Shown: positions 3,373 to 29,132 of the stretch, piece by piece
How positions within the stretch are numbered: the stretch's first letter is position 1
Layout of the letters: every line of letters starts with the position of its first letter
From: Candidatus Latescibacterota bacterium
Lineage (GTDB): Bacteria > Latescibacterota > UBA2968
Length of the DNA stretch: 64,000 nt
Assembly (NCBI GenBank): GCA_965207885.1
Contig: OZ242311.1
Location: 5,504,001-5,568,000, forward strand
Reading direction: 5' to 3'
Notes under the pieces: model-generated
What the model was told of the DNA's origin: nothing
Database searches by the model: none
What the model saw: only the letters and a program-made list of their open reading frames with translations
Made by a program: the position numbers and the translations under genes

Positions 3373-4113
3373 TCACACTTCCCAATATTCCCACATATCA
3401 TCCGGCGTCTCAAACTGCAACAGATCCCAATTTTTTGTACTCATGCGACTCACCAGAGCCATCCGTATCTGATCGCTGCAATTCGACGTACCGCTGTGAA
3501 CCATATACCCGTGCCAGATACACGCAGTCCCTGCTCGTCCGACCAACTCAACAGGTTCATTCAGATCGAAAATGCGGCCCATATCGCGCTCGACAATGCC
3601 GCCGGGATGATGCATATTGAGACCCAGCAGGGAATGCGACTTGAAAAATTCAGCAACAGCCTTATGACTACCGGGCCACAGTGTAAAACCTCCGCCACGC
3701 GGCGCCACATCACTCAGATAAACCGTCACACCAATCGTAAACCCCACGGTTGCCTGCTCGCTCTTATTATAACCATCCAGATGTGGTAACTTGATCGCCC
3801 ACTCATCGCTGCCACTGGGATACACCAGAATGGTCGAAGGATCGGCATCATCGCTCAAATCGCCAGCCAGTTCCCTGCACATCGCAAACAAATCCGTTTC
3901 GTAAAGCGTTGCGCGAATCGCGGGATGATCCCAACAATCTGGACTCCGCGGCCCGGCATCCACCCAGGTCTGTGGATCATAGCGATCTGCTTCAATATAA
4001 TGCCAAAGCGTATCGACCGCCCCTTGAATTTGACCCTCACTCAACATATTGTATCGAATGAGATAGCCATTTTCCACAAAAAAAGTTTTATCTTTAGCTG
4101 TTAAAAGTGACAT
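3373..4113 (-). CDS. PhyH-family dioxygenase (start re-assigned to ATG 4113)
   Basis: MSLLTAKDKTFFVENGYL, PHLD, WPGSH, MVH; the track extension to 4401 overlaps the sulfatase. Confidence 0.8.
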   Translation of the reverse strand: MSLLTAKDKTFFVENGYLIRYNMLSEGQIQGAVDTLWHYIEADRYDPQTWVDAGPRSPDCWDHPAIRATLYETDLFAMCRELAGDLSDDADPSTILVYPSGSDEWAIKLPHLDGYNKSEQATVGFTIGVTVYLSDVAPRGGGFTLWPGSHKAVAEFFKSHSLLGLNMHHPGGIVERDMGRIFDLNEPVELVGRAGTACIWHGYMVHSGTSNCSDQIRMALVSRMSTKNWDLLQFETPDDMWEYWEV

Positions 4114-9015: not shown

Positions 9016-10770
9016 TTATCGGTATTGAAATTCCGGTGATCCTATCAACATACTGATCACCTGAACCTCTTTGCGTTTGGCATCATCTGGAATCGTCTCT
9101 TTGACCTCTGAAGCAATAGCACTCGTATCCTGAGCCGGCAACAGCAACTTGCTATACCTCGCCAATGCCTCATCCGTCGTCAGACCATCGCTATCTTGAG
9201 ACAATCGCTTCAATGCAATCCCTCTAATTTTGCCCGTAGCCAGATGGACGCCGAAATTCATTCGCGCGATCAGCGTACCCGAATTTGCCCACGACTCGGC
9301 ATAATCCGGAAAACCCGTAGGCGGCAAATAACCATACAGCGGCTCGCCCATGCGGTCAAACCAGCCCATCACCGGCAACGGATTCCGTACATCCGCTTCC
9401 AATGCGCGAAGAGAACTCACCACCAGTTCAAATGGCGACTTCATCTTACTGCGCTTCTTCGCCTCTGCCCAAAACTCGCGAGACTGCGCCAGCGTAGCCA
9501 TCACAGCAACGATATCCCCATCCGTCTTGCGAAATGTCTTCGCCATCCGCTCGACCAGCGCCTCGGGAGGATTGTCATTGATAAACCGACGCGCCAGCTT
9601 CGTAGAAATAAAACGCGCAGTTGAAGGGTGTTTGGTCAGCATATCCAGAACGCGCTCGCCCTCTTCTATGCCACCACCTGCCGGGAACTGCTCACCCAAC
9701 ACCACCTTGGCTTTTTTGTCGTGCCAGTCTCTGCGGAACACAAATTCGCCCTCGCGAATGAGTCTTTTACTTCCCCTGGCGATTTGCTTCTCGAGATTTT
9801 TACGCGCATTGTTATAAGGCATCGCAGCCCAACCCGTCAACACGCGCGCAACCTCGGTAACATCCTGCTGCGTGTATCCACCATCCACTCCGAGGGTGTG
9901 CAACTCCATCAACTCGCGGGCATAATTCTCATTCAAACCGTACTTGCGCCTGCGTTGTGGAGGGGTCTGCACCTTCGCCATGGCCTCGCCGCCCATCATA
10001 CCGCCATCCATACCCATCTCACCCGATGCCACCTCCTGTTTGGGCCTGGGTTGATTCCGCTGTGATGGCGGCGCCATACGCGACTGTGCATTATCCAGAT
10101 AATACAACATCGCAGGATGCTTCGCCGTCGCACCCAAAATCACGCGAAACTTGCCCAGCACATTGGGACGAATCGCATCGCGCTCATAGGTAAGCACATG
10201 ACTGCGCGCCCCACCATCGCGCGTGGTCACATTAAAGTGATTGAACCAGAAATCCGTCATCACCTCAGTGAGCTGATTCTCGCTATACACAGCCCGCATC
10301 AGCTTCTGACCCTTCAATTCCTTATTGTAAAGCGCATTCTGAGCACGCAACCCGTGCTTCTTGCGATACGCGCTTATCTTTTGATTCATCTCTTTGCGAT
10401 CCATCTTTGCGGCATCAATCGCGCCCTGCCTCTCCAGTATTCTGCGAATTCGCCCATTCTGCACATAGATTGCCTGCATTTCAGCCTGCGTCATCTTCAA
10501 CGCGGGAAACGCTTCCAATCGTTTGTCCAGCTCGGCATCCGGCAAATTGCCAGCCAACTGCTGAGCCAGCCACTTCTCGGGACCCATCTTTGCCACTTTT
10601 TCCACTTCACCTGGCCGCGCACCAAAAGCAAAACGCTCCAGAAGATACGCTGCCGCTTGCTCCTTATTCAGCCCTTCTTTTTTATAGGGCAATTTCAACT
10701 TAGCATCCGCCGCAGCCCCAGAAAGTAAGGCACCACAGCACAAAACAATTAGCGCAAAGCGCAATATCAT
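9016..10770 (-). CDS. DUF1800-family secreted protein, paralog 2 (start at ATG 10770)
   Basis: MILRFALIVLCC signal peptide after GGAGG RBS; same motifs as paralogs. Confidence 0.88.
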   Translation of the reverse strand: MILRFALIVLCCGALLSGAAADAKLKLPYKKEGLNKEQAAAYLLERFAFGARPGEVEKVAKMGPEKWLAQQLAGNLPDAELDKRLEAFPALKMTQAEMQAIYVQNGRIRRILERQGAIDAAKMDRKEMNQKISAYRKKHGLRAQNALYNKELKGQKLMRAVYSENQLTEVMTDFWFNHFNVTTRDGGARSHVLTYERDAIRPNVLGKFRVILGATAKHPAMLYYLDNAQSRMAPPSQRNQPRPKQEVASGEMGMDGGMMGGEAMAKVQTPPQRRRKYGLNENYARELMELHTLGVDGGYTQQDVTEVARVLTGWAAMPYNNARKNLEKQIARGSKRLIREGEFVFRRDWHDKKAKVVLGEQFPAGGGIEEGERVLDMLTKHPSTARFISTKLARRFINDNPPEALVERMAKTFRKTDGDIVAVMATLAQSREFWAEAKKRSKMKSPFELVVSSLRALEADVRNPLPVMGWFDRMGEPLYGYLPPTGFPDYAESWANSGTLIARMNFGVHLATGKIRGIALKRLSQDSDGLTTDEALARYSKLLLPAQDTSAIASEVKETIPDDAKRKEVQVISMLIGSPEFQYR

Positions 10771-24095: not shown

Positions 24096-25091
24096 TTAAC
24101 GCATTTTCAAAATCCGGTTGATCTCTGCTCCACTCATTTTCCTTTCAAAACGCGGACCGTATTTGGCGACAACGCGCGAGGAAACATAGGTTGCGAGCCT
24201 CGCAGCCTGAGCCGCATCGTAACCCCGGGTCACAGCAAACAAATACGCCCCGGCAAACGAGTCGCCCGCGCCATTGGTATCCACAGCATTGACCTCAAAA
24301 CCCGGCGCATGCAACACATCGCCACCGTCGCAAACCCGGGCGCCATCAGCACCATACGTCAGAGCCAAACCGCCCACGCGTTGTCGCAACGCGTCAAAAG
24401 CCTCATCCGTTGTCTCGGCACCCGTGAATATCATGCCCTCATCCTCATTGCAAAACAGCATATCCACGCCCGCATCGACCAATGCCGTCATCCTATCCTT
24501 AAAAGCGGCCACAATAGACGGATCGCTCAGGGTGAGCGCGACCTTTGTACCGCGCTCCTGCGCTATCTTTTGCGCTGCCTGTGCCGCTTCAAAGCCATCG
24601 TCTGCCGCAATTAGATAACCCTCGATATAAATAAATTGGCTATCGGCAATCACACCACCCTCAACCTGCGCCACACCAAACGTACTCGTAATCCCCAAAA
24701 ATGTATTCATCGTGCGATCTGCATCCTCCGTAATCATCACCAGACACTTGCCCGTAACCCCTTCCCCGCGATGTGAAGGATTACACGCCACCCCCGCGGT
24801 ATTGAGATCGCGAAGATAAAACGCGCCATCTGCATCCTCAGCCACCTTACATCCGTAATAGCCCCTCCCACCACAATTGGCCAGCGCGATCATCGTATTG
24901 GCTGCCGAACCGCCCGACGAACGCGCCATCTCCTTCCCGCCCAAAGCATTGATCAACGCGCGCTGGCGATCTCCGTCAATCAGCGTCATCACACCCTTGT
25001 CAATCTCCATCGCCTCAAAAAATGACGGATCAACCCGAAACTGGATATCCACCAGCGCATTGCCCAGCCCATATACATCGTATTGACGCAT
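24096..25091 (-). CDS. PfkB-family sugar/nucleoside (adenosine-like) kinase
   Basis: GNALVD, SGGSAANT, DTNGAGDSFAG. Confidence 0.9.
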   Translation of the reverse strand: MRQYDVYGLGNALVDIQFRVDPSFFEAMEIDKGVMTLIDGDRQRALINALGGKEMARSSGGSAANTMIALANCGGRGYYGCKVAEDADGAFYLRDLNTAGVACNPSHRGEGVTGKCLVMITEDADRTMNTFLGITSTFGVAQVEGGVIADSQFIYIEGYLIAADDGFEAAQAAQKIAQERGTKVALTLSDPSIVAAFKDRMTALVDAGVDMLFCNEDEGMIFTGAETTDEAFDALRQRVGGLALTYGADGARVCDGGDVLHAPGFEVNAVDTNGAGDSFAGAYLFAVTRGYDAAQAARLATYVSSRVVAKYGPRFERKMSGAEINRILKMR

Positions 25092-25190
25092 GACTTCTCC
25101 TCTCTCAATGTAATACCCACCTCAATCAAAAATTAAAATTAAAAACTGATATTACGCAATACTCAAGTACAGAGCGGCACAATTCACATT

Positions 25191-26498
25191 CTACGGATGC
25201 AACCTGTTGGGGGTGCGGGACAAAAAAGTCGTCTCGCGCACAGAGGGCAACCCGAGCATAACCATAAGCAAACGCGACAGACCAAAACCAAATCCCCCGT
25301 GTGGCGGACATCCATACTTAAAAAAATCGAGATAAAACTGGATAACCTCTAAATCCAGCCCTTTCTCTCTCGCTTGTGCCCTCAGAAAATCGGGACGGTG
25401 CTCACGCTGCGCGCCCGTGGTAATTTCCACACCGCGATAGAGCAGATCAAAGCTCCTGGTCAACGCAGGCTGTTCTGGGTGAAGCATGTGGTAAAATGGC
25501 CGCACAGATACCGGGTAGTCTATCACAAAGACATAATCGCAACCCCGGGTTTTGCGGATATATTCACCGAGCAGACGCTCGCCCTTTGGATCGAGGTCGC
25601 CTTCTCGATCTGGCGCGTGACCCTGTTCGTACAACACCGCCAATGCCTCGGCCATCGCGATCCGCGGAAAAGGCAGTACTGGCACCATGAGTTCAACATC
25701 GTAATTTTCCGCAATAGCGTCACCGTGTCTTTCGCTTACTGTGTAAATGACATGTTGCAGCCATGCTTCTTCAAATGCCATCACATCCTCGTGACTATCA
25801 ATCCATGCGATCTCAACATCCACACTGGTAAACTCCGTCGTATGGCGTGAAGTAAATGAAGGATCAGCGCGAAAAACGGGCGCAATCTCAAACACGCGAT
25901 CAAAACCAGACGCCATCGCCATCTGTTTGTAAAACTGAGGCGATTGCGCCAGATAAGCTGTGGAATTGAAATACGGCAACGCAAACAACTCCGCTCCCGA
26001 TTCACTGGCTGTACCCATCAGTTTGGGAGAATGTATCTCGATAAAATGATTCTGCATCCAGTACTCGCGCATCGCCCATTCAACAGTAGTTTGTATCTCA
26101 AAAATCAACCGATTGCGCGGAACGCGAAGATCGAGATGCCGCCAATCCAGCCGATGGTCAATACCCGATGCACTTTCGGAAAACGGATCCAAAGGCAACG
26201 GCGCTTCAGCTACATTGACAACACTCAGTTCCTCAAGCTGAATTTCAACACCACCCAGACGAACACCTATATTTTCGACAACACGTCCGCTTATAGTTAC
26301 CGCCGATTCTCGCGTAAGAGCAGAAACCCGCTCTGCCAACGCCCCTGTCTTTTCATGCACGACCTGTACACTTCCCGTGCGATTTCTCAAAATGAGAAAC
26401 TGGACATACTTCTGGTCGCGCAGGGTATGCACCCATCCGTGAAGGGTAACGGTTTGGCCGATATATTTGGAAAGTTCAGATATTGCGATGTATTTCAT
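25191..26498 (-). CDS. aspS: Archaeal-type, probably non-discriminating aspartyl-tRNA synthetase (start at ATG 26498)
   Basis: 435 aa with no GAD insert; LAQSPQFYKQ, FRAD..FTSRH..EF, GAQREH, PPHGGFGFGLSR; AAGGAG RBS. Confidence 0.88.
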   Translation of the reverse strand: MKYIAISELSKYIGQTVTLHGWVHTLRDQKYVQFLILRNRTGSVQVVHEKTGALAERVSALTRESAVTISGRVVENIGVRLGGVEIQLEELSVVNVAEAPLPLDPFSESASGIDHRLDWRHLDLRVPRNRLIFEIQTTVEWAMREYWMQNHFIEIHSPKLMGTASESGAELFALPYFNSTAYLAQSPQFYKQMAMASGFDRVFEIAPVFRADPSFTSRHTTEFTSVDVEIAWIDSHEDVMAFEEAWLQHVIYTVSERHGDAIAENYDVELMVPVLPFPRIAMAEALAVLYEQGHAPDREGDLDPKGERLLGEYIRKTRGCDYVFVIDYPVSVRPFYHMLHPEQPALTRSFDLLYRGVEITTGAQREHRPDFLRAQAREKGLDLEVIQFYLDFFKYGCPPHGGFGFGLSRLLMVMLGLPSVRETTFLSRTPNRLHP

Positions 26499-26525
26499 GA
26501 TAGACTCCTTTTGGTTTTCAGGCAC

Positions 26526-26561
26526 AAAAAAAGCCCGTTGTCGTATTTTTCGACAACGGGC
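26526..26561 (-). terminator. Attenuator terminator upstream of aspS
   Basis: GCCCGTTGTCG-AAAAATA-CGACAACGGGC-TTTTTTT, perfect 11-bp stem. Confidence 0.88.
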
Positions 26562-26591
26562 ACTTTACTCTACATGCTGGCACAAGACGAC

Positions 26592-26681
26592 CTATGCCGG
26601 TCCAGCCCGTCGCCGGATCGGATTATTATCGTCATTATTATTGCCAGAGAATTGAGCGATTTGGAAATAGTGTATATGCAT
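26592..26681 (-). CDS. Asn/Asp-rich attenuator leader peptide (29 aa)
   Basis: MHIHYFQIAQFSGNNNDDNNPIRRRAGPA*; contains antiterminator strand 26605-26615. Confidence 0.8.
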   Translation of the reverse strand: MHIHYFQIAQFSGNNNDDNNPIRRRAGPA

Positions 26682-26686
26682 GGTAT

Positions 26687-27424
26687 TTATCCAGTTTTTC
26701 TCCCGCCAAAAACAGCCAGTTCAAACAGCTTGAAATAACAATCTACATCTGAAAAACCAATAGCTCTGAGCCATTCGCATTGAGCTTCAACAGACGCGAG
26801 AATATTCGCCTGTTTGTCATCGCGATAATAATAAGCCCGCGCGATTTCATCGCGAGAAGCATTTGGATCTCGCCGCGTAACAGAATCGTAAAGCGCGTCA
26901 ATAAAGCGATCTGCAAAACGCGACTCAACCCACTTCGACGGAGAGCGAACATGCTCGACATTGACAAACACGCCATTGGGAGAAAGCAGATCAAAAATCT
27001 CGCCATAAACTTCGCGCTTGCGTTCATCGCTCTGATGATGAATTGAAAAACCCGATACAATCGCGTCATAAGGCGCGTCATCTGCAACCAGACTGAGCCA
27101 ATCGGACGTTGCATAATCGCCAATAACAAAACGGTGCTGTGAAGCCGTTTCCCCAAACCGCTTCTGCGCAGCCTCGATCATAGCCTCAGAAAAATCTACA
27201 AAAACGCCGCGTGCATCCGGGTGGTATTCAATAACCGCGGCGCCGAGTATGCCATCCCCACACCCCAGATCGAGCACAGTATTGACCCCGTGATCATCCG
27301 CATTAATCACCCGGCACATAACGGCAATCTGCTCATCGGACAGCGGAATTGCCTGCCGAATATTCTTGAGATATTTCTGCGCCAGATCTCGCGCCTGCCA
27401 GGCTGTATCTTTGCGTTTGCTCAT
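26687..27424 (-). CDS. Class I SAM-dependent methyltransferase
   Basis: VLDLGCGDG motif I, VDFSEAM, YDAIVSGFSIHH. Confidence 0.88.
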   Translation of the reverse strand: MSKRKDTAWQARDLAQKYLKNIRQAIPLSDEQIAVMCRVINADDHGVNTVLDLGCGDGILGAAVIEYHPDARGVFVDFSEAMIEAAQKRFGETASQHRFVIGDYATSDWLSLVADDAPYDAIVSGFSIHHQSDERKREVYGEIFDLLSPNGVFVNVEHVRSPSKWVESRFADRFIDALYDSVTRRDPNASRDEIARAYYYRDDKQANILASVEAQCEWLRAIGFSDVDCYFKLFELAVFGGRKTG

Positions 27425-27472
27425 AAAAATTCCATTTCTCAGCTTTTAGCGGTCAACGGTCAACAAAACCTT

Positions 27473-27505
27473 CTGGATCGCGGCTCAACACCATGCCGCG
27501 ATGAC
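27473..27505. repeat. CTGGA-stem-TGAC REP copy
   Basis: CTGGATCGCGGCTCAACACCATGCCGCGATGAC. Confidence 0.75.
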
Positions 27506-27551
27506 AACCTCCCTTCATACTTCACACTTCCTACTTCACACTTTCCCATAT

Positions 27552-29132
27552 TCAATACCCCACTGCCAGACCATCCTTGCGGGGATCGGAAGCCGCGCAA
27601 TAACCGTCGTCCAATTTATAAATGAGTTGACCTCCGCCATATCCAATAGCTGGTGGAATTTGGATATCGTGCCCGCGGGCGCGAAGATCGTCCAGCACAC
27701 CGGCATCCACACCTGGCTCAATACCCACGCTCAAACCGCCAAAAACCTGCCACCGGGGCGCATCACACGCAGCCTGTGGATTTTGACCATAAGCAAAAAT
27801 CCGAATCATCATCTGCGCGTGACCTTGCGGCTGCATGTGCCCACCCATAACGCCGAAAGACATCACCGGTTGGCCCTCTCGGGTCGCAAACGCTGGAATA
27901 ATCGTATGATACGGTCGCTTGCCCCCATCTACGCGATTGGGATGGTCCTCCGTCAAAACAAAACCCGCACCCCGGTTCTGCATACTAATACCCGTATCCG
28001 GAATCACAACACCAGATCCAAAACCCATATAATTGGACTGAATAAACGAAACCATCATCCCATCTGCATCTGCCGCCGTAAGATAAACCGTATCCCCACG
28101 CGGCATGCCAAAAGTGGGCATCCCTGCCCTTTTCAGATCAATCGACCTCGCGCGTTGCGCCAGATAATCCGGATCGAGCAATTGCGCGAACTCAATATCC
28201 CGCGTACCCGGATCAGACACGTACCTGTGCGTATCCGCATACGCCAACTTCATCGCCTCAATCTGAAGATGTAAACTATCCGCCGAATCAACAGCATACC
28301 CGGACAAATCCCAATTCTCCAGTATCCCCAGCGCAATCAGTGCCGCAATACCCTGACCATTCGGCGGAATTTCGTGCAGCGTATAACCCCCAAAATCCAT
28401 CGTCATTGTATCCACCCAATCTGTCCGATGCTCCGCCAGGTCTTCTTCTGTCATCGCACCGCCAGTGCGTTTTGCATGCGCAGCGATCTTCTCTGCCAAA
28501 TCTCCCGAATAGAACGCCTCTCCTCTTGTCTCCGCAATCCGTTCAAGCGTGCGCGCCTGCGCGCCACACACAAATTTCTCTCCAATTTTCGGCGCGCGTC
28601 CCCCGGGTGCAAAAGTCGCCATCCAATCGGGCATATCGCCGTAATTATACACAGCCTGTGCCCAGCTATGCCCGGTAATAGGCGAAACTACAAAACCATC
28701 GCGGGCATAGTGAATCGCGGGTTCAAACAACGCCTCAAACGGCAACACGCCAAACCGCTCTGAAACCTCGGCCCATGCCGAAACACAGCCAGGCACAGTC
28801 ACGGCATCCCAACCGCGCTGAGGCATCAGAGTGTGCGCTGCAAATAAATCGGGCGACCACGCTTTTGGGGAACGCCCCGATGCATTGAGACCGTGTATTT
28901 GCTCGCCATCCCACAAAATGCAAAACGCATCGCTACCTATACCATTCATATTGGGTTCAACAACCGTAAGCGCCATGGCTGTTGCCAGAGCTGCATCTGC
29001 GGCATTGCCACCTTTGAGCAACATCTGCAACCCCGCCTGAGCGGCCAGAGGTTGAGAAGTCGCAACCACATTGCGCGCCATAACCGGCATGCGTTGTGAA
29101 GAATACGGAAAAGACCAGGATAATTCGGGCAT
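27552..29132 (-). CDS. ggt: Gamma-glutamyltransferase family protein
   Basis: GGNAADAA, PPNGQG, GD-TVY nucleophile Thr, KRPYHTIIP, GVMGG.MQPQG, SDPRKDG. Confidence 0.9.
   Translation of the reverse strand: MPELSWSFPYSSQRMPVMARNVVATSQPLAAQAGLQMLLKGGNAADAALATAMALTVVEPNMNGIGSDAFCILWDGEQIHGLNASGRSPKAWSPDLFAAHTLMPQRGWDAVTVPGCVSAWAEVSERFGVLPFEALFEPAIHYARDGFVVSPITGHSWAQAVYNYGDMPDWMATFAPGGRAPKIGEKFVCGAQARTLERIAETRGEAFYSGDLAEKIAAHAKRTGGAMTEEDLAEHRTDWVDTMTMDFGGYTLHEIPPNGQGIAALIALGILENWDLSGYAVDSADSLHLQIEAMKLAYADTHRYVSDPGTRDIEFAQLLDPDYLAQRARSIDLKRAGMPTFGMPRGDTVYLTAADADGMMVSFIQSNYMGFGSGVVIPDTGISMQNRGAGFVLTEDHPNRVDGGKRPYHTIIPAFATREGQPVMSFGVMGGHMQPQGHAQMMIRIFAYGQNPQAACDAPRWQVFGGLSVGIEPGVDAGVLDDLRARGHDIQIPPAIGYGGGQLIYKLDDGYCAASDPRKDGLAVGY

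What the first reader, a model, noticed from the sequence alone, without database searches (positions are those of the whole stretch)
26498..26681. Asn/Asp-sensing leader-peptide attenuator on an archaeal-type (likely non-discriminating) AspRS
Seen: a 29-aa ORF missed by the track, MHIHYFQIAQFSG-NNNDDNN-PIRRRAGPA, has seven consecutive Asn/Asp codons. Its segment CGGCGACGGGC (26605-26615) can form an 11-bp helix (two GU pairs) with the 5' arm GCCCGTTGTCG of a perfect terminator ending 27 nt before the aspS ATG. Known: ribosome-mediated attenuation (trp, his, thr, ilv, pheST); ND-AspRS charges both tRNA-Asp and tRNA-Asn, with GatCAB completing Asn-tRNA. Inference: stalling at N or D codons frees the antiterminator, so the leader monitors both products of the dual-specificity enzyme. 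I know of no described Asn/Asp leader attenuator.
Basis: partly seen in the sequence, partly recalled or inferred. Interest (0 to 1): 0.9.

Follow-up and report, generated by a model that had tools for sequence, protein, structure and literature searches.

The report
Asn/Asp leader attenuator with arrest motif
A short, conserved upstream reading frame rich in asparagine and aspartate codons, ending in a SecM-like RAGP stalling motif and followed by a terminator, most likely switches a spare aspartyl-tRNA synthetase gene on when Asn or Asp charging runs low.

Summary
A 29-codon ORF (26681-26592) has seven consecutive Asn/Asp codons. An 11-nt segment (26615-26605) pairs with the 5' arm of a perfect terminator (26561-26533, T7), which ends 27 nt before the aspS ATG.

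The element is not chance. It recurs in 28 of 53 genomes of one order of Candidatus Latescibacterota. In 27 of these 28 it lies next to this archaeal-type aspS or its remnant, behind different upstream genes. Both the terminator and the antiterminator helices show compensatory changes.

The gene is an accessory second AspRS. The genome also has a bacterial AspRS, AsnRS, GlnRS and GatA/GatB, but no AsnA and no AsnB above cut-off. That is the gene set known for tRNA-dependent asparagine synthesis.

RAGP is the SecM arrest core. Footprint-constrained folding shows that in 5 of the 7 lineages modelled only a ribosome parked at RAG|P blocks the antiterminator; a ribosome at the stop codon does not.

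Best reading: an Asn/Asp-sensing attenuator whose OFF state depends on a nascent-peptide arrest. This is a new variant of a known kind and is untested experimentally.

The parts
26592..26681 (-). Leader ORF, 29 codons plus stop (MHIHYFQIAQFSGNNNDDNNPIRRRAGPA*). It starts 5 nt after the stop of the upstream methyltransferase gene.
   Evidence: orthologous uORFs in 28 genomes
26622..26642 (-). Regulatory codon run: AAT AAT AAT GAC GAT AAT AAT (N14-N20).
   Evidence: In 24 distinct leaders, the 10 codons before P-I hold 113 N, 44 D and 16 H out of 240. Runs of this kind are rare in the genome.
26605..26615 (-). Region 2, the antiterminator 5' strand CGGCGACGGGC (codons R23 R24 R25 and GC of A26).
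   Evidence: Duplex -21.1 kcal/mol, 2 of 3000 shuffles as good. 93.9% of cells paired in 24 sequences, with 2 pairs showing compensatory changes.
26598..26609 (-). RAGP codons (CGG GCT GGA CCG), a putative SecM-type arrest core. The predicted arrest has Gly (26603-26601) in the P site and Pro (26600-26598) in the A site.
   Evidence: Conserved in 23 of 24 distinct leaders with wobble T/A/G/C at Ala and A/T/G/C at Gly, and in 27 of 28 genomes. RAGP is the SecM and YwcI arrest core. Footprint folds.
26567..26657 (-). Long imperfect hairpin predicted in this genome's leader. It sequesters region 2 when no ribosome is present (anti-antiterminator). It was not seen in the other lineages modelled.
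   Evidence: MFE and centroid; 'no ribosome' state
26533..26561 (-). Intrinsic terminator hairpin: 5' arm 26561-26551 (region 3), loop 26550-26544, 3' arm 26543-26533 (region 4).
   Evidence: -19.7 kcal/mol; 97.3% of cells paired, 6 pairs with changes on both sides
26526..26532 (-). T7 tract of the terminator.
26505..26510 (-). AAGGAG Shine-Dalgarno sequence of aspS2.
   Evidence: read from the sequence
25191..26498 (-). aspS2: archaeal-type aspartyl-tRNA synthetase, 435 aa, the regulated gene. It is an accessory copy.
   Evidence: NCBIfam NF003483 493 bits (cut-off 353) and TIGR00458 399 bits (368). PDB relatives 3nel and 1n9w. Second AspRS and AsnRS elsewhere in the genome.
26687..27424 (-). 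Upstream class-I SAM methyltransferase-like gene. It is not part of the regulatory unit, but RNA contigs run from it into the leader.
   Evidence: The upstream gene differs in other genera (valS in genus g6).

Best explanation
This is a ribosome-mediated transcription attenuator that controls an accessory archaeal-type AspRS (aspS2).

Mechanism proposed:
- The leader RNA is transcribed, apparently together with the upstream gene, and its short ORF is translated.
- When Asn-tRNA(Asn) and Asp-tRNA(Asp) are plentiful, the ribosome runs through the N/D codons and reaches R-A-G-P. There the nascent peptide arrests or strongly pauses it, with Gly in the P site and Pro in the A site.
- In that position the ribosome covers the 11-nt region 2 (the R-R-R-A codons). 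The terminator hairpin then forms and transcription stops before aspS2.
- When charged tRNA(Asn) or tRNA(Asp) is scarce, the ribosome stalls on one of the first five or six N/D codons. Region 2 stays free and pairs with the terminator's 5' arm as it emerges, and RNA polymerase reads into aspS2.

Likely physiological role: the genome has AsnRS, GlnRS and GatA/GatB but no AsnA and no AsnB above cut-off. Induced AspRS2 probably supplies Asp-tRNA(Asn) for amidation to Asn-tRNA(Asn), as well as extra Asp-tRNA(Asp).

Shown here: the anatomy, its conservation, covariation of both helices, and peptide-level selection on A-G-P.
Inferred: translation of the ORF, the arrest, the response to starvation, and the non-discriminating specificity of AspRS2.
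My odds: real N/D-codon attenuator about 0.8; functional arrest or pause at RAGP about 0.55.
For: 1. Anatomy.

2. Rarity: 7 N/D runs of 6 or more in six frames of 6.23 Mb. 2 of 3000 shuffles match the region 2:3 duplex.

3. Conservation:
- The motif pattern hit 26 of 168 genomes of the phylum, and the reversed control hit none. 24 of the 27 hits are true leaders and 3 are chance hits inside long ORFs.
- The covariance model found strong full-length hits in 28 of 53 genomes of the order.
- 27 of these 28 have aspS2 or its remnant downstream.
- The upstream genes differ: a methyltransferase in g1, valS in g6.

4. Covariation:
- Terminator: 97.3% of cells paired, 6 pairs changed on both sides, slid controls 29-55%.
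- Antiterminator: 93.9% paired, compensatory GC<->AU at columns 38-106 and AU<->GC at 42-102, slid controls 31-61%.
- Column 102 co-varies with both partners, 42 and 122.

5. Peptide-level selection: P-I-(R/Q)-(R/Q)-R-A-G-P in 23 of 24 distinct leaders, with all four wobble bases at Ala and at Gly. Residues after P are not conserved. The stop codon lies at +1, +3 or +4, or is absent before the terminator (G026 and G022).

6. Footprint-constrained folding:
- In G000, N/D stalls at codons -8 to -2 give 10-11 nt of antiterminator. A ribosome at RAG|P or at the stop gives none.
- In 5 of the 7 lineages modelled (G024, G037, G083, G085, G036) the antiterminator forms with no ribosome, with an N/D stall, and with a ribosome at the stop codon. 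Only the RAG|P position abolishes it.

7. RAGP is the SecM arrest core and supports arrest in ApdP, ApcA and YwcI, with the P site at Gly (passages read in PMC12992588 and PMC10987492). In this genome RAGP occurs 18 times in long ORFs against 57.7 expected.

8. Genome context in G000: AsnRS 558 bits and bacterial AspRS 841 bits, GatB, GatA 643 bits, GlnRS 714 bits. No AsnA. The best AsnB-family hit scores 123 bits against a cut-off of 267. The same AsnRS + GlnRS + GatCAB set is described for Deinococcus and Thermus (abstract of PMC4206432, seen in the listing).

9. Analogy within the lineage: weak model hits turned out to be other leader-plus-terminator units whose codon runs fit the gene. These are WWW before TrpRS, a V/L/I/G-rich leader before ilvB, and a T/H-rich leader before a ThrRS-like gene.

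10. Shine-Dalgarno-like sequences (GGAG, AAGGAG) precede the leader ATG in g6 and g7.
Against: - There is no experimental evidence of any kind.
- RAGP alone is often not enough. [quoted passage not shown]
- The R-R-(R)-A part of the motif is also dictated by the need to pair with a GC-rich terminator. Similar R-rich region-2 codons occur in unrelated leaders of this lineage that lack G-P.
- Leaders of genera g6 and g8 carry many non-cognate His codons, up to 4 of the 10 codons before P-I.
- In this genome the leader has only a weak SD-like GGAT and starts 5 nt after the upstream stop, so its translation may depend on coupling.
- Non-discriminating specificity of AspRS2 is unproven. The best PDB match is the Thermococcus kodakarensis enzyme, 371 bits against 309 for Thermus AspRS2; that it is discriminating is recalled. 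Of two recalled specificity determinants, one looks ND-like and one does not.
- 4 of the 7 genus-g1 genomes without aspS2 also lack AsnB, so AspRS2 cannot be the only route to Asn in the genus.
- aspS2 is broken or partial in several genomes (G040, G022, G023, G086, G088).
- The folds are thermodynamic and use an assumed footprint of -12 to +15 nt around the P site.
Confidence: 0.7

Rival explanations
1. A classical leader-peptide attenuator without any peptide-mediated arrest. Under this reading the N/D codons sense charging, and region 2 is masked simply by the transiting or terminating ribosome. A-G-P would be conserved for another reason, for example slow Pro peptide-bond formation giving only a trivial pause, or an unknown role of the peptide.
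For: - In G000 a ribosome at the stop codon already prevents the antiterminator in the model.
- Most RAPP-like motifs do not arrest on their own.
- The upstream tandem leaders in G036, G026 and G022 lack RAGP yet have N/D codons and terminators.
Against: - In 5 of the 7 lineages modelled, a ribosome at the stop codon leaves 10-12 nt of antiterminator paired. G026 has no stop codon before the terminator.
- A-G-P is invariant in 23 of 24 distinct leaders with free wobble positions, while the residues after it and the position of the stop codon vary.
Confidence: 0.2
2. The arrest itself is the sensor. Here the RAGP arrest would be strengthened or relieved by a small molecule or cellular condition, for example free Asn or Asp, in the manner of TnaC with tryptophan. 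The N/D/H-rich stretch would act as the tunnel-contacting part of the arrest peptide and not as a codon-level sensor.
For: - With Gly in the P site, the N/D/H segment would lie about 7-14 residues from the peptidyl-transferase centre (position inferred).
- Its composition is conserved but not its exact sequence, and it includes non-cognate His codons.
Against: - The run matches the amino acids handled by the regulated enzyme.
- Other leaders in the lineage also match their genes: WWW before TrpRS, branched-chain-rich before ilvB.
- The upstream tandem leaders keep N/D codons without RAGP.
- Stalling at the run gives the antiterminator in every lineage modelled.
- No ligand-sensing precedent for RAGP peptides turned up in the passages read.
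Confidence: 0.06
3. The run senses decoding by queuosine-modified tRNAs. All NAY codons (Asn, Asp, His, Tyr) are read by Q34 tRNAs, so the leader would report on that group and not on Asn/Asp charging specifically.
For: The residues substituted within the run are almost only N, D, H and Y, which means first-position changes of NAY codons. That these four tRNAs carry queuosine is recalled knowledge, not a tool result.
Against: - There is no link between queuosine and AspRS2 in any result here.
- In genera g1, g4, g5 and g9 the run is purely or almost purely N/D.
- N-to-H, D or Y changes are single-base neighbours and may simply be tolerated drift.
Confidence: 0.03
4. The element is not regulatory. 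The hairpin would just be the terminator of the upstream gene, and the short ORF and its complementarity would be chance.
For: - In this genome the ORF starts 5 nt after the methyltransferase stop.
- RNA contigs run from that gene into the leader and none bridges the terminator.
Against: - The unit travels with aspS2, not with the upstream gene: a methyltransferase in g1, valS in g6, others elsewhere.
- Only 27 nt separate the terminator from the aspS2 start, which leaves no room for a separate promoter.
- Both helices show covariation.
- The peptide shows selection at the amino-acid level.
- Chance controls.
Confidence: 0.01

Closest known systems
Classical leader-peptide attenuators of amino-acid operons (trp, his, leu, thr, ilv, pheA) and of pheST in Enterobacteria (recalled; the review-type references were seen only in the reference list of PMC1262725)
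   Same: - A short translated leader with a run of codons cognate to the regulated function.
- An intrinsic terminator and a mutually exclusive antiterminator.
- A stalled ribosome that frees region 2.
- pheST is a precedent for an aminoacyl-tRNA synthetase controlled in this way.
   Different: - Amino-acid specificity is Asn/Asp; none was found in print in six searches.
- The target is an accessory archaeal-type AspRS.
- The host phylum is Latescibacterota.
- In most lineages there is no 1:2 hairpin, and the stop codon is too far downstream, or absent, to mask region 2.
- A conserved RAGP motif sits exactly where a parked ribosome would cover region 2.
SecM and other RAPP-like arrest peptides: ApdA, ApdP, ApcA, B. 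subtilis YwcI (PMC12992588, passages and section 13 read; PMC10987492, passages read)
   Same: - A C-terminal R-A-G-P core identical to that of SecM and YwcI.
- The motif lies near the C-terminus of a small uORF product.
- Residues after the Pro are not conserved.
- RAGP is depleted in this genome's long ORFs, as reported for bacterial proteomes.
   Different: - It is not upstream of sec or yidC genes.
- No signal or membrane segment was noticed on reading the peptides; none was predicted with a tool.
- The proposed output is formation of an intrinsic terminator, not exposure of a ribosome-binding site.
- Relief would come from stalling upstream at hungry codons, not from a pulling force.
- Arrest is untested here.
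TnaC / tna operon (recalled)
   Same: An arrested ribosome on a leader peptide decides whether transcription continues into the downstream genes.
   Different: - TnaC arrest occurs at the stop codon, needs free tryptophan, blocks Rho and turns the operon ON.
- Here the proposed arrest is at an elongation step, acts on an intrinsic terminator and gives the OFF state.
T-box riboswitches upstream of aspS and other synthetase genes in Firmicutes (recalled)
   Same: They sense tRNA charging and control a synthetase gene through a terminator/antiterminator choice.
   Different: There is no T-box here. An Rfam scan at E up to 10 over 25000-28000 gave only two sub-threshold, unrelated hits. Sensing is proposed to go through the ribosome.
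AspRS2 of Deinococcus radiodurans and Thermus thermophilus with GatCAB: tRNA-dependent asparagine synthesis (abstract of PMC4206432 in the listing; PDB 1n9w named 'non-discriminating and archaeal-type')
   Same: - An archaeal-type second AspRS beside a bacterial AspRS.
- AsnRS, GlnRS and GatA/GatB present.
- No AsnA and no AsnB above cut-off.
   Different: - Specificity of this enzyme is untested.
- I found no report of leader-peptide control of those genes.
- Some relatives lack both aspS2 and AsnB.

Membership tests
Ribosome-mediated (leader-peptide) transcription attenuator | Short ORF in the 5' leader with a run of codons cognate to the regulated function | tested here: met
   29-codon ORF with 7 consecutive N/D codons before an AspRS gene. 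N/D-rich runs in all 24 distinct leaders aligned and in the 3 added later.
Ribosome-mediated (leader-peptide) transcription attenuator | Intrinsic terminator between the leader ORF and the regulated gene | tested here: met
   11-bp stem plus T7. 97.3% of cells paired, 6 pairs with changes on both sides in 24 sequences.
Ribosome-mediated (leader-peptide) transcription attenuator | Alternative antiterminator that uses the terminator's 5' arm | tested here: met
   11 bp, -21.1 kcal/mol, 2 of 3000 shuffles as good. 93.9% paired, 2 compensatory pairs.
Ribosome-mediated (leader-peptide) transcription attenuator | Geometry: a ribosome stalled on the regulatory codons leaves region 2 free, and a ribosome further on masks it | tested here: met
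   Footprint-constrained folds in 7 lineages. This is a model with an assumed footprint.
Ribosome-mediated (leader-peptide) transcription attenuator | Read-through rises when the cognate charged tRNA is limiting; the leader is translated | not testable with these tools
   Only indirect support: peptide-level selection and SD-like sequences before the leader ATG in g6 and g7. RNA contigs cover the leader but cannot show ends or levels.
RAPP-like / SecM-type ribosome arrest peptide | R-A-(G/P)-P core near the C-terminus of a small uORF product | tested here: met
   RAGP in 27 of 28 genomes, 1-4 residues before the stop or with no nearby stop.
RAPP-like / SecM-type ribosome arrest peptide | Selection acts on the peptide, not only on the RNA | tested here: met
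   Ala wobble T/A/G/C and Gly wobble A/T/G/C with invariant amino acids. The wobble variation is not compensated in the hairpins considered (read).
RAPP-like / SecM-type ribosome arrest peptide | Demonstrated elongation arrest with Gly-tRNA in the P site and Pro-tRNA in the A site, dependent on Arg and Pro | not testable with these tools
   Needs toeprinting or detection of peptidyl-tRNA. The literature shows that context matters.
RAPP-like / SecM-type ribosome arrest peptide | Monitoring substrate: upstream of sec/yidC genes, with a localisation signal, arrest relieved by pulling force | tested here: not met
   The downstream gene is an AspRS. No hydrophobic signal was noticed on reading the leader peptides; no predictor was run. 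It is therefore not a member of the Sec/YidC monitoring class, although it may work through the same arrest chemistry.
T-box riboswitch or other Rfam family | Match to a curated covariance model | tested here: not met
   cmscan of 25000-28000 at E up to 10 gave only isrN (19.7 bits, gathering score 44, elsewhere in the stretch) and mir-2001 (16.8 bits, gathering score 74, which is just the hairpin).
Archaeal-type non-discriminating AspRS | Membership of the archaeal-type AspRS family | tested here: met
   NF003483 493 bits (cut-off 353), TIGR00458 399 bits (368). PDB 3nel 371 bits, 1n9w 309 bits.
Archaeal-type non-discriminating AspRS | Charges tRNA(Asn) as well as tRNA(Asp) | tested here: inconclusive
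   His24 aligns with the Thermus AspRS2 His and with Trp26 of the Thermococcus enzyme, and no Pro aligns with its Lys85. The meaning of these positions is recalled, not tested. Genome context fits an ND enzyme but the bacterial AspRS could play that role.

The most novel reading that the evidence does not exclude
This would be an 'arrest-locked' attenuator: a class of leader-peptide attenuator in which a SecM-type nascent-peptide arrest (RAGP) is the obligatory OFF switch. It would replace the stop codon and 1:2 hairpin of the classical design, while hungry Asn/Asp codons upstream override it. It would be the first Asn/Asp-sensing attenuator. It would also be part of a wider habit of Latescibacterota of placing accessory aminoacyl-tRNA synthetases (AspRS2, TrpRS, a ThrRS-like gene) under leader-peptide control. 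In that case tRNA-dependent asparagine synthesis is switched on only when Asn-tRNA runs short.
Probability: 0.5. Interest if true: 0.85.

Novelty: new variant of a known kind. Interest (0 to 1): 0.75.

Why it matters
- Leader-peptide attenuation is a textbook mechanism, but I found no case that senses asparagine or aspartate, and none that builds in a peptide arrest motif.
- If the RAGP arrest is real, it links two fields usually treated separately: codon-run attenuators and SecM-type arrest peptides. It would show that arrest chemistry can be used to hold a ribosome on an RNA switch.
- It also offers a regulatory rationale for keeping a second, archaeal-type AspRS: making Asn-tRNA through GatCAB on demand in a sponge-associated, uncultured phylum.
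- The element is about 160 nt long and can be tested in E. coli extracts or purified systems without the native organism.

Tried and rejected
- T-box, riboswitch or known sRNA: the Rfam scan at E up to 10 gave nothing relevant.
- Chance ORF or terminator of the upstream gene: rejected by conservation with changing upstream genes, covariation and peptide-level selection.
- RNA-level explanation for A-G-P: I looked for hairpins that would constrain the Ala and Gly wobble positions. These were the RNAalifold pairs 30-51 and neighbours and a CCGAUCC/GGACCGG pairing read by eye. The wobble changes are not compensated, so I dropped this.
- A second NNNDNN ORF at G000:C1:4858583(-) is a 39-aa hydrophobic small protein with its own SD and no attenuator. 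It is unrelated.
- An 'RPP...RPP' peptide before a terminator at G000:C1:3443100(-) is the C-terminus of a longer gene, not a leader.
- Genome-wide scan of G000 for leader-position terminators with codon-rich short ORFs: of 121 candidates, only the aspS2 leader showed an N/D run or an RAGP-like motif. The scan was crude (perfect stems of 7 or more, ATG starts only).
- Outside the phylum: 0 of 69 loci with AspRS2 homologues (58-65% identity; Anaerolineae, Solirubrobacterales and others) had 5 or more N/D in any 8-codon window within 400 nt upstream. One of them had only 52 nt of upstream sequence.
- Metagenome pattern scan: 5 hits, of which 1 is a true leader (L144) and 4 are chance matches in GC-rich coding DNA.
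- Phylum pattern scan: 3 of 27 hits were chance matches inside long ORFs (L034, L037, L038).
- RNA libraries (4 metatranscriptome runs from 3 studies, kept as contigs, laid at 90% likeness):
  - Contigs cover 26558-26716, 26609-26815 and 26578-27424, that is the leader joined to the upstream gene.
  - Separate contigs cover aspS2 (25719-26533 and 25195-25964).
  - No contig bridges the terminator hairpin. Contigs cannot show RNA ends or levels, and hairpins break assemblies, so this is no evidence for or against termination.
- aspS2 versus AsnB: in genus g1, 13 of 14 aspS2-positive genomes lack AsnB above cut-off and 3 of 7 aspS2-negative genomes have it. But 4 have neither, and most g6 genomes have neither. 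The complementarity is only partial and kin are not independent.
- Specificity residues of AspRS2: ambiguous.
- Supplementary files of the papers were not opened. Supplementary lists of RAPP-like uORFs in PMC12992588 and PMC10987492 might contain related entries that I could not see.


Full report
**1. What is in the window.** All elements lie on the minus strand.

- A class-I methyltransferase-like gene ends with TAA at 26689-26687.
- Five bases later an ATG at 26681 opens a 29-codon ORF, MHIHYFQIAQFSGNNNDDNNPIRRRAGPA, which stops at 26594-26592.
- Codons 14-20 (26642-26622) are AAT AAT AAT GAC GAT AAT AAT.
- Codons R23-R24-R25 and the first two bases of A26 (26615-26605, CGGCGACGGGC) are complementary to GCCCGTTGTCG (26561-26551), with two G-U pairs.
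- That segment is the 5' arm of a perfect 11-bp hairpin (loop 7) followed by T7 (26532-26526).
- Twenty-seven bases further on, behind AAGGAG (26510-26505), the ATG at 26498 opens a 435-aa archaeal-type AspRS. NCBIfam names it aspartate--tRNA(Asn) ligase: 493 bits against a cut-off of 353, and TIGR00458 399 against 368.

**2. More than chance.**

- N/D runs of six or more occur seven times in all six frames of the 6.23-Mb genome, and one is this leader.
- The best duplex between the 125 nt upstream and the terminator arm is -21.1 kcal/mol. It was matched by 2 of 3000 dinucleotide shuffles.
- The 202-nt leader folds with z = -4.4.
- Rfam finds nothing relevant at E up to 10.

**3. Organism and gene content.**

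- Record titles of near-identical loci name MAGs of Candidatus Latescibacterota. DNA runs that hold the stretch are mostly sponge metagenomes.
- The genome also encodes a bacterial-type AspRS (841 bits) and an AsnRS (558 bits).
- It has GatB and an adjacent GatA and GlnRS.
- It has no AsnA of either type and no AsnB above cut-off. The best AsnB-family match scores 123 bits against 267.
- The gene behind the leader is therefore an accessory second AspRS (aspS2). The set AsnRS + GlnRS + GatCAB + second AspRS is the one reported for Deinococcus and Thermus, where it serves tRNA-dependent asparagine synthesis (abstract of PMC4206432 in the listing; PDB 1n9w is named 'non-discriminating and archaeal-type').
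- Non-discrimination is not shown for this enzyme. Its best solved relative is the Thermococcus kodakarensis AspRS (371 bits against 309), which I recall to be discriminating. Two positions that I recall as specificity determinants give a mixed answer.
- aspS2 is present in 14 of 21 genomes of the genus. Of these 14, 13 lack AsnB. Of the 7 without aspS2, 3 have AsnB and 4 have neither. The complementarity is only partial.

**4. Conservation.**

- Upstream regions of all aspS2 orthologues found among 41 relatives carry a similar uORF and terminator.
- A degenerate pattern for the peptide tail hit 26 of 168 genomes of the phylum, all in one order, and the reversed control hit none. Three of the 27 hits were chance matches inside long ORFs.
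- A covariance model built from 24 distinct leaders gave strong full-length matches in 28 of 53 genomes of the order. This added genera g9 and g10.
- 27 of the 28 have aspS2 or a remnant directly downstream. In G012 the leader and terminator remain but the gene is gone.
- The upstream gene differs between genera: a methyltransferase in g1, valS in g6. The unit therefore belongs to aspS2.
- Outside the phylum, 0 of 69 loci with 58-65% identical AspRS genes had an N/D-rich uORF within 400 nt upstream.
- A metagenome scan added one more true leader out of five hits.

**5. RNA structure.** All counts are on the 24-sequence alignment.

- Terminator: 97.3% of cells paired, six pairs changed on both sides, slid controls 29-55%.
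- Antiterminator: 93.9% paired, with compensatory GC<->AU at columns 38-106 and AU<->GC at 42-102, slid controls 31-61%.
- Column 102 changes together with both of its alternative partners, 42 and 122. This is what mutually exclusive helices predict.

**6. The peptide tail.**

- The tail P-I-(R/Q)-(R/Q)-R-A-G-P is present in 23 of 24 distinct leaders. P-N-(Q/R)-R-R-A-G-P occurs in g9.
- The Arg codons are partly explained by the RNA, because they form region 2. Similar R-rich region-2 codons occur in unrelated leaders of the lineage.
- Ala and Gly, however, are invariant while their wobble positions take all four bases. The residues after Pro are not conserved.
- The stop codon lies at +1, +3 or +4, or is missing before the terminator (G026, and G022 where the frame runs into aspS). 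That is the signature of selection on the peptide up to Pro.
- R-A-G-P is the C-terminal core of the SecM arrest sequence. It supports arrest in ApdP and ApcA contexts, and in B. subtilis YwcI the ribosome stalls with Gly in the P site (passages of PMC12992588 and PMC10987492).
- RAGP is depleted in this genome's long ORFs: 18 observed against 57.7 expected. Such depletion is reported for bacterial proteomes.
- The same literature warns that most RAPP-like segments taken from ordinary proteins do not arrest efficiently in vitro. Arrest here is an inference.

**7. How the parts fit.** I folded the nascent transcript up to the terminator loop, with a stretch of -12 to +15 nt around the P site made unpairable.

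- In this genome:
  - without a ribosome, region 2 is buried in a long imperfect hairpin (26657-26567) and the terminator arm stays free;
  - with the A site on N/D codons -8 to -2, 10-11 nt of the antiterminator form;
  - with the ribosome on the last N codon, at RAG|P or at the stop codon, none forms.
- In five other lineages (G024, G037, G083, G085, G036) the antiterminator forms with no ribosome, with an N/D stall, and with the ribosome at the stop codon (10-12 nt). Only the RAG|P position abolishes it.
- G026 has no stop codon before the terminator.
- In most of the family, then, the only modelled state that lets the terminator form is a ribosome held at RAGP. This is the main reason I include an arrest, or a long pause, in the mechanism.

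**8. Support from neighbours.**

- Weak hits of the model turned out to be other leader-plus-terminator units whose codon runs fit their genes:
  - ...GWWWSGDISIGQP* before a TrpRS (271 bits, over cut-off);
  - a V/L/I/G-rich leader before acetolactate synthase (590 bits, over cut-off);
  - a T/H-rich leader before a truncated ThrRS-like gene (371 bits, below cut-off).
- Three genomes carry a second, upstream N/D-containing leader with its own terminator and no RAGP.
- Codon-run attenuation therefore seems to be in use in this lineage, which favours reading the N/D run as the sensor.

**9. Expression.**

- In four metatranscriptome runs kept as contigs, pieces join the upstream gene to the leader (26558-26716, 26609-26815, 26578-27424). 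Other pieces cover aspS2. None bridges the hairpin.
- Contigs cannot show ends or levels, so I draw no conclusion beyond presence of the leader in RNA libraries.

**10. Weak points.**

- There is no experiment.
- Leaders of g6 and g8 contain many His codons.
- The g1 leader has a poor SD and may rely on coupling to the upstream gene.
- Specificity of AspRS2 is unknown.
- aspS2 is decaying in several genomes and is absent from relatives that also lack AsnB.
- The folding model is thermodynamic with an assumed footprint.

**11. Comparison and novelty.**

- The element meets every sequence-level criterion of a leader-peptide attenuator. It works like the trp/his/pheST class.
- It differs in amino-acid specificity, target, host and the built-in RAGP motif.
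- It shares the core of SecM-type arrest peptides but is not a Sec/YidC monitoring substrate.
- Six full-text searches found no Asn/Asp leader attenuator, no leader control of AspRS2, and no arrest peptide coupled to an intrinsic-terminator attenuator. PMC12992588 has no mention of tRNA synthetases, attenuation or terminators.
- I rate it a new variant of a known kind.

**12. Verdict.**

- Observation confirmed.
- Interpretation supported and extended.
- Confidence 0.7 for the attenuator as described: about 0.8 for N/D-codon attenuation and about 0.55 for a functional RAGP arrest.
- Interest 0.75.

Noticed in passing
L175 (G087:C151, about 9290-9510), outside the window: A 42-aa uORF ending ...VTGWWWSGDISIGQP*, then a strong terminator with a T8 tract, about 220 nt upstream of a TrpRS gene (TIGR00233 271 bits, cut-off 177). 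It looks like a Trp-codon leader attenuator on a tryptophanyl-tRNA synthetase.
   Followed up: partly
L174 (G081:C45, about 70200-70400), outside the window: A uORF ending ...SLIGVGLVAGLVVANGEDRQRERP*, with the stop two codons after a region-2-like CGACAGCGGG, then a terminator, upstream of the acetolactate synthase large subunit (TIGR00118 590 bits). It looks like a branched-chain leader attenuator.
   Followed up: partly
L177 (G024:C500, about 1420-1700), outside the window: A uORF ...AHSTMHHHTMTSTHQTRRLAGALLE* plus a terminator, directly before a 386-aa ThrRS-like gene. That gene matches only the catalytic and anticodon-binding part of archaeal-type ThrRS (PRK03991 positions 258-612, 371 bits, below the cut-off of 484).
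   Followed up: partly
L016/L032 (G036), L017/L031 (G026), L019 (G022); L176 (G080:C1:4468759-4468846): A second, upstream N/D-containing leader with its own antiterminator and terminator, but without RAGP, stands in tandem before the RAGP leader. In G080 the corresponding copy lies about 4 kb upstream. An ORF that looks like a transposase by eye (no family search was run) lies downstream of that copy, between it and the RAGP leader.
   Followed up: partly
L044 (G012:C19, about 3835-3960): The leader and terminator are retained behind the methyltransferase gene, but aspS2 is missing. The sequence diverges right after the T-run.
   Followed up: partly
L008, L011, L012 (G015, G004, G017), between terminator and aspS2: An insertion of about 95 nt lies between the terminator and the aspS2 SD. 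It contains a repeat-like element (...GTCATGCTGAGCGGAGTGAAACGGAGTCGAAGCATCT...). L004, L007, L012 and L008, L010 also have 130-200-nt insertions between the methyltransferase stop and the leader.
   Followed up: no
G000:C1:4858583 (minus strand), outside the window: A 39-aa ORF, MNNNDNNGFVGGFIRGFCIVFFGGLIVLGIIIILLLAL, with a strong SD. It is the only other short ORF in the genome with an N/D run of 6. It is a hydrophobic small protein, not a leader.
   Followed up: partly
G040, G022, G023, G086, G088 aspS2 loci (L021/L033, L019, L020, L162, L163): aspS2 appears broken or partial (internal stops, frameshift, internal deletion, or only the N-terminal 71 residues) while the leader is kept. Some of this may be assembly error in fragmented MAGs.
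   Followed up: partly
window 24096-25091 (minus strand): Directly downstream of aspS2 lies a PfkB/ribokinase-family sugar or nucleoside kinase gene (best NCBIfam hit 88 bits, far below cut-off). Whether it is co-transcribed with aspS2 was not examined.
   Followed up: no
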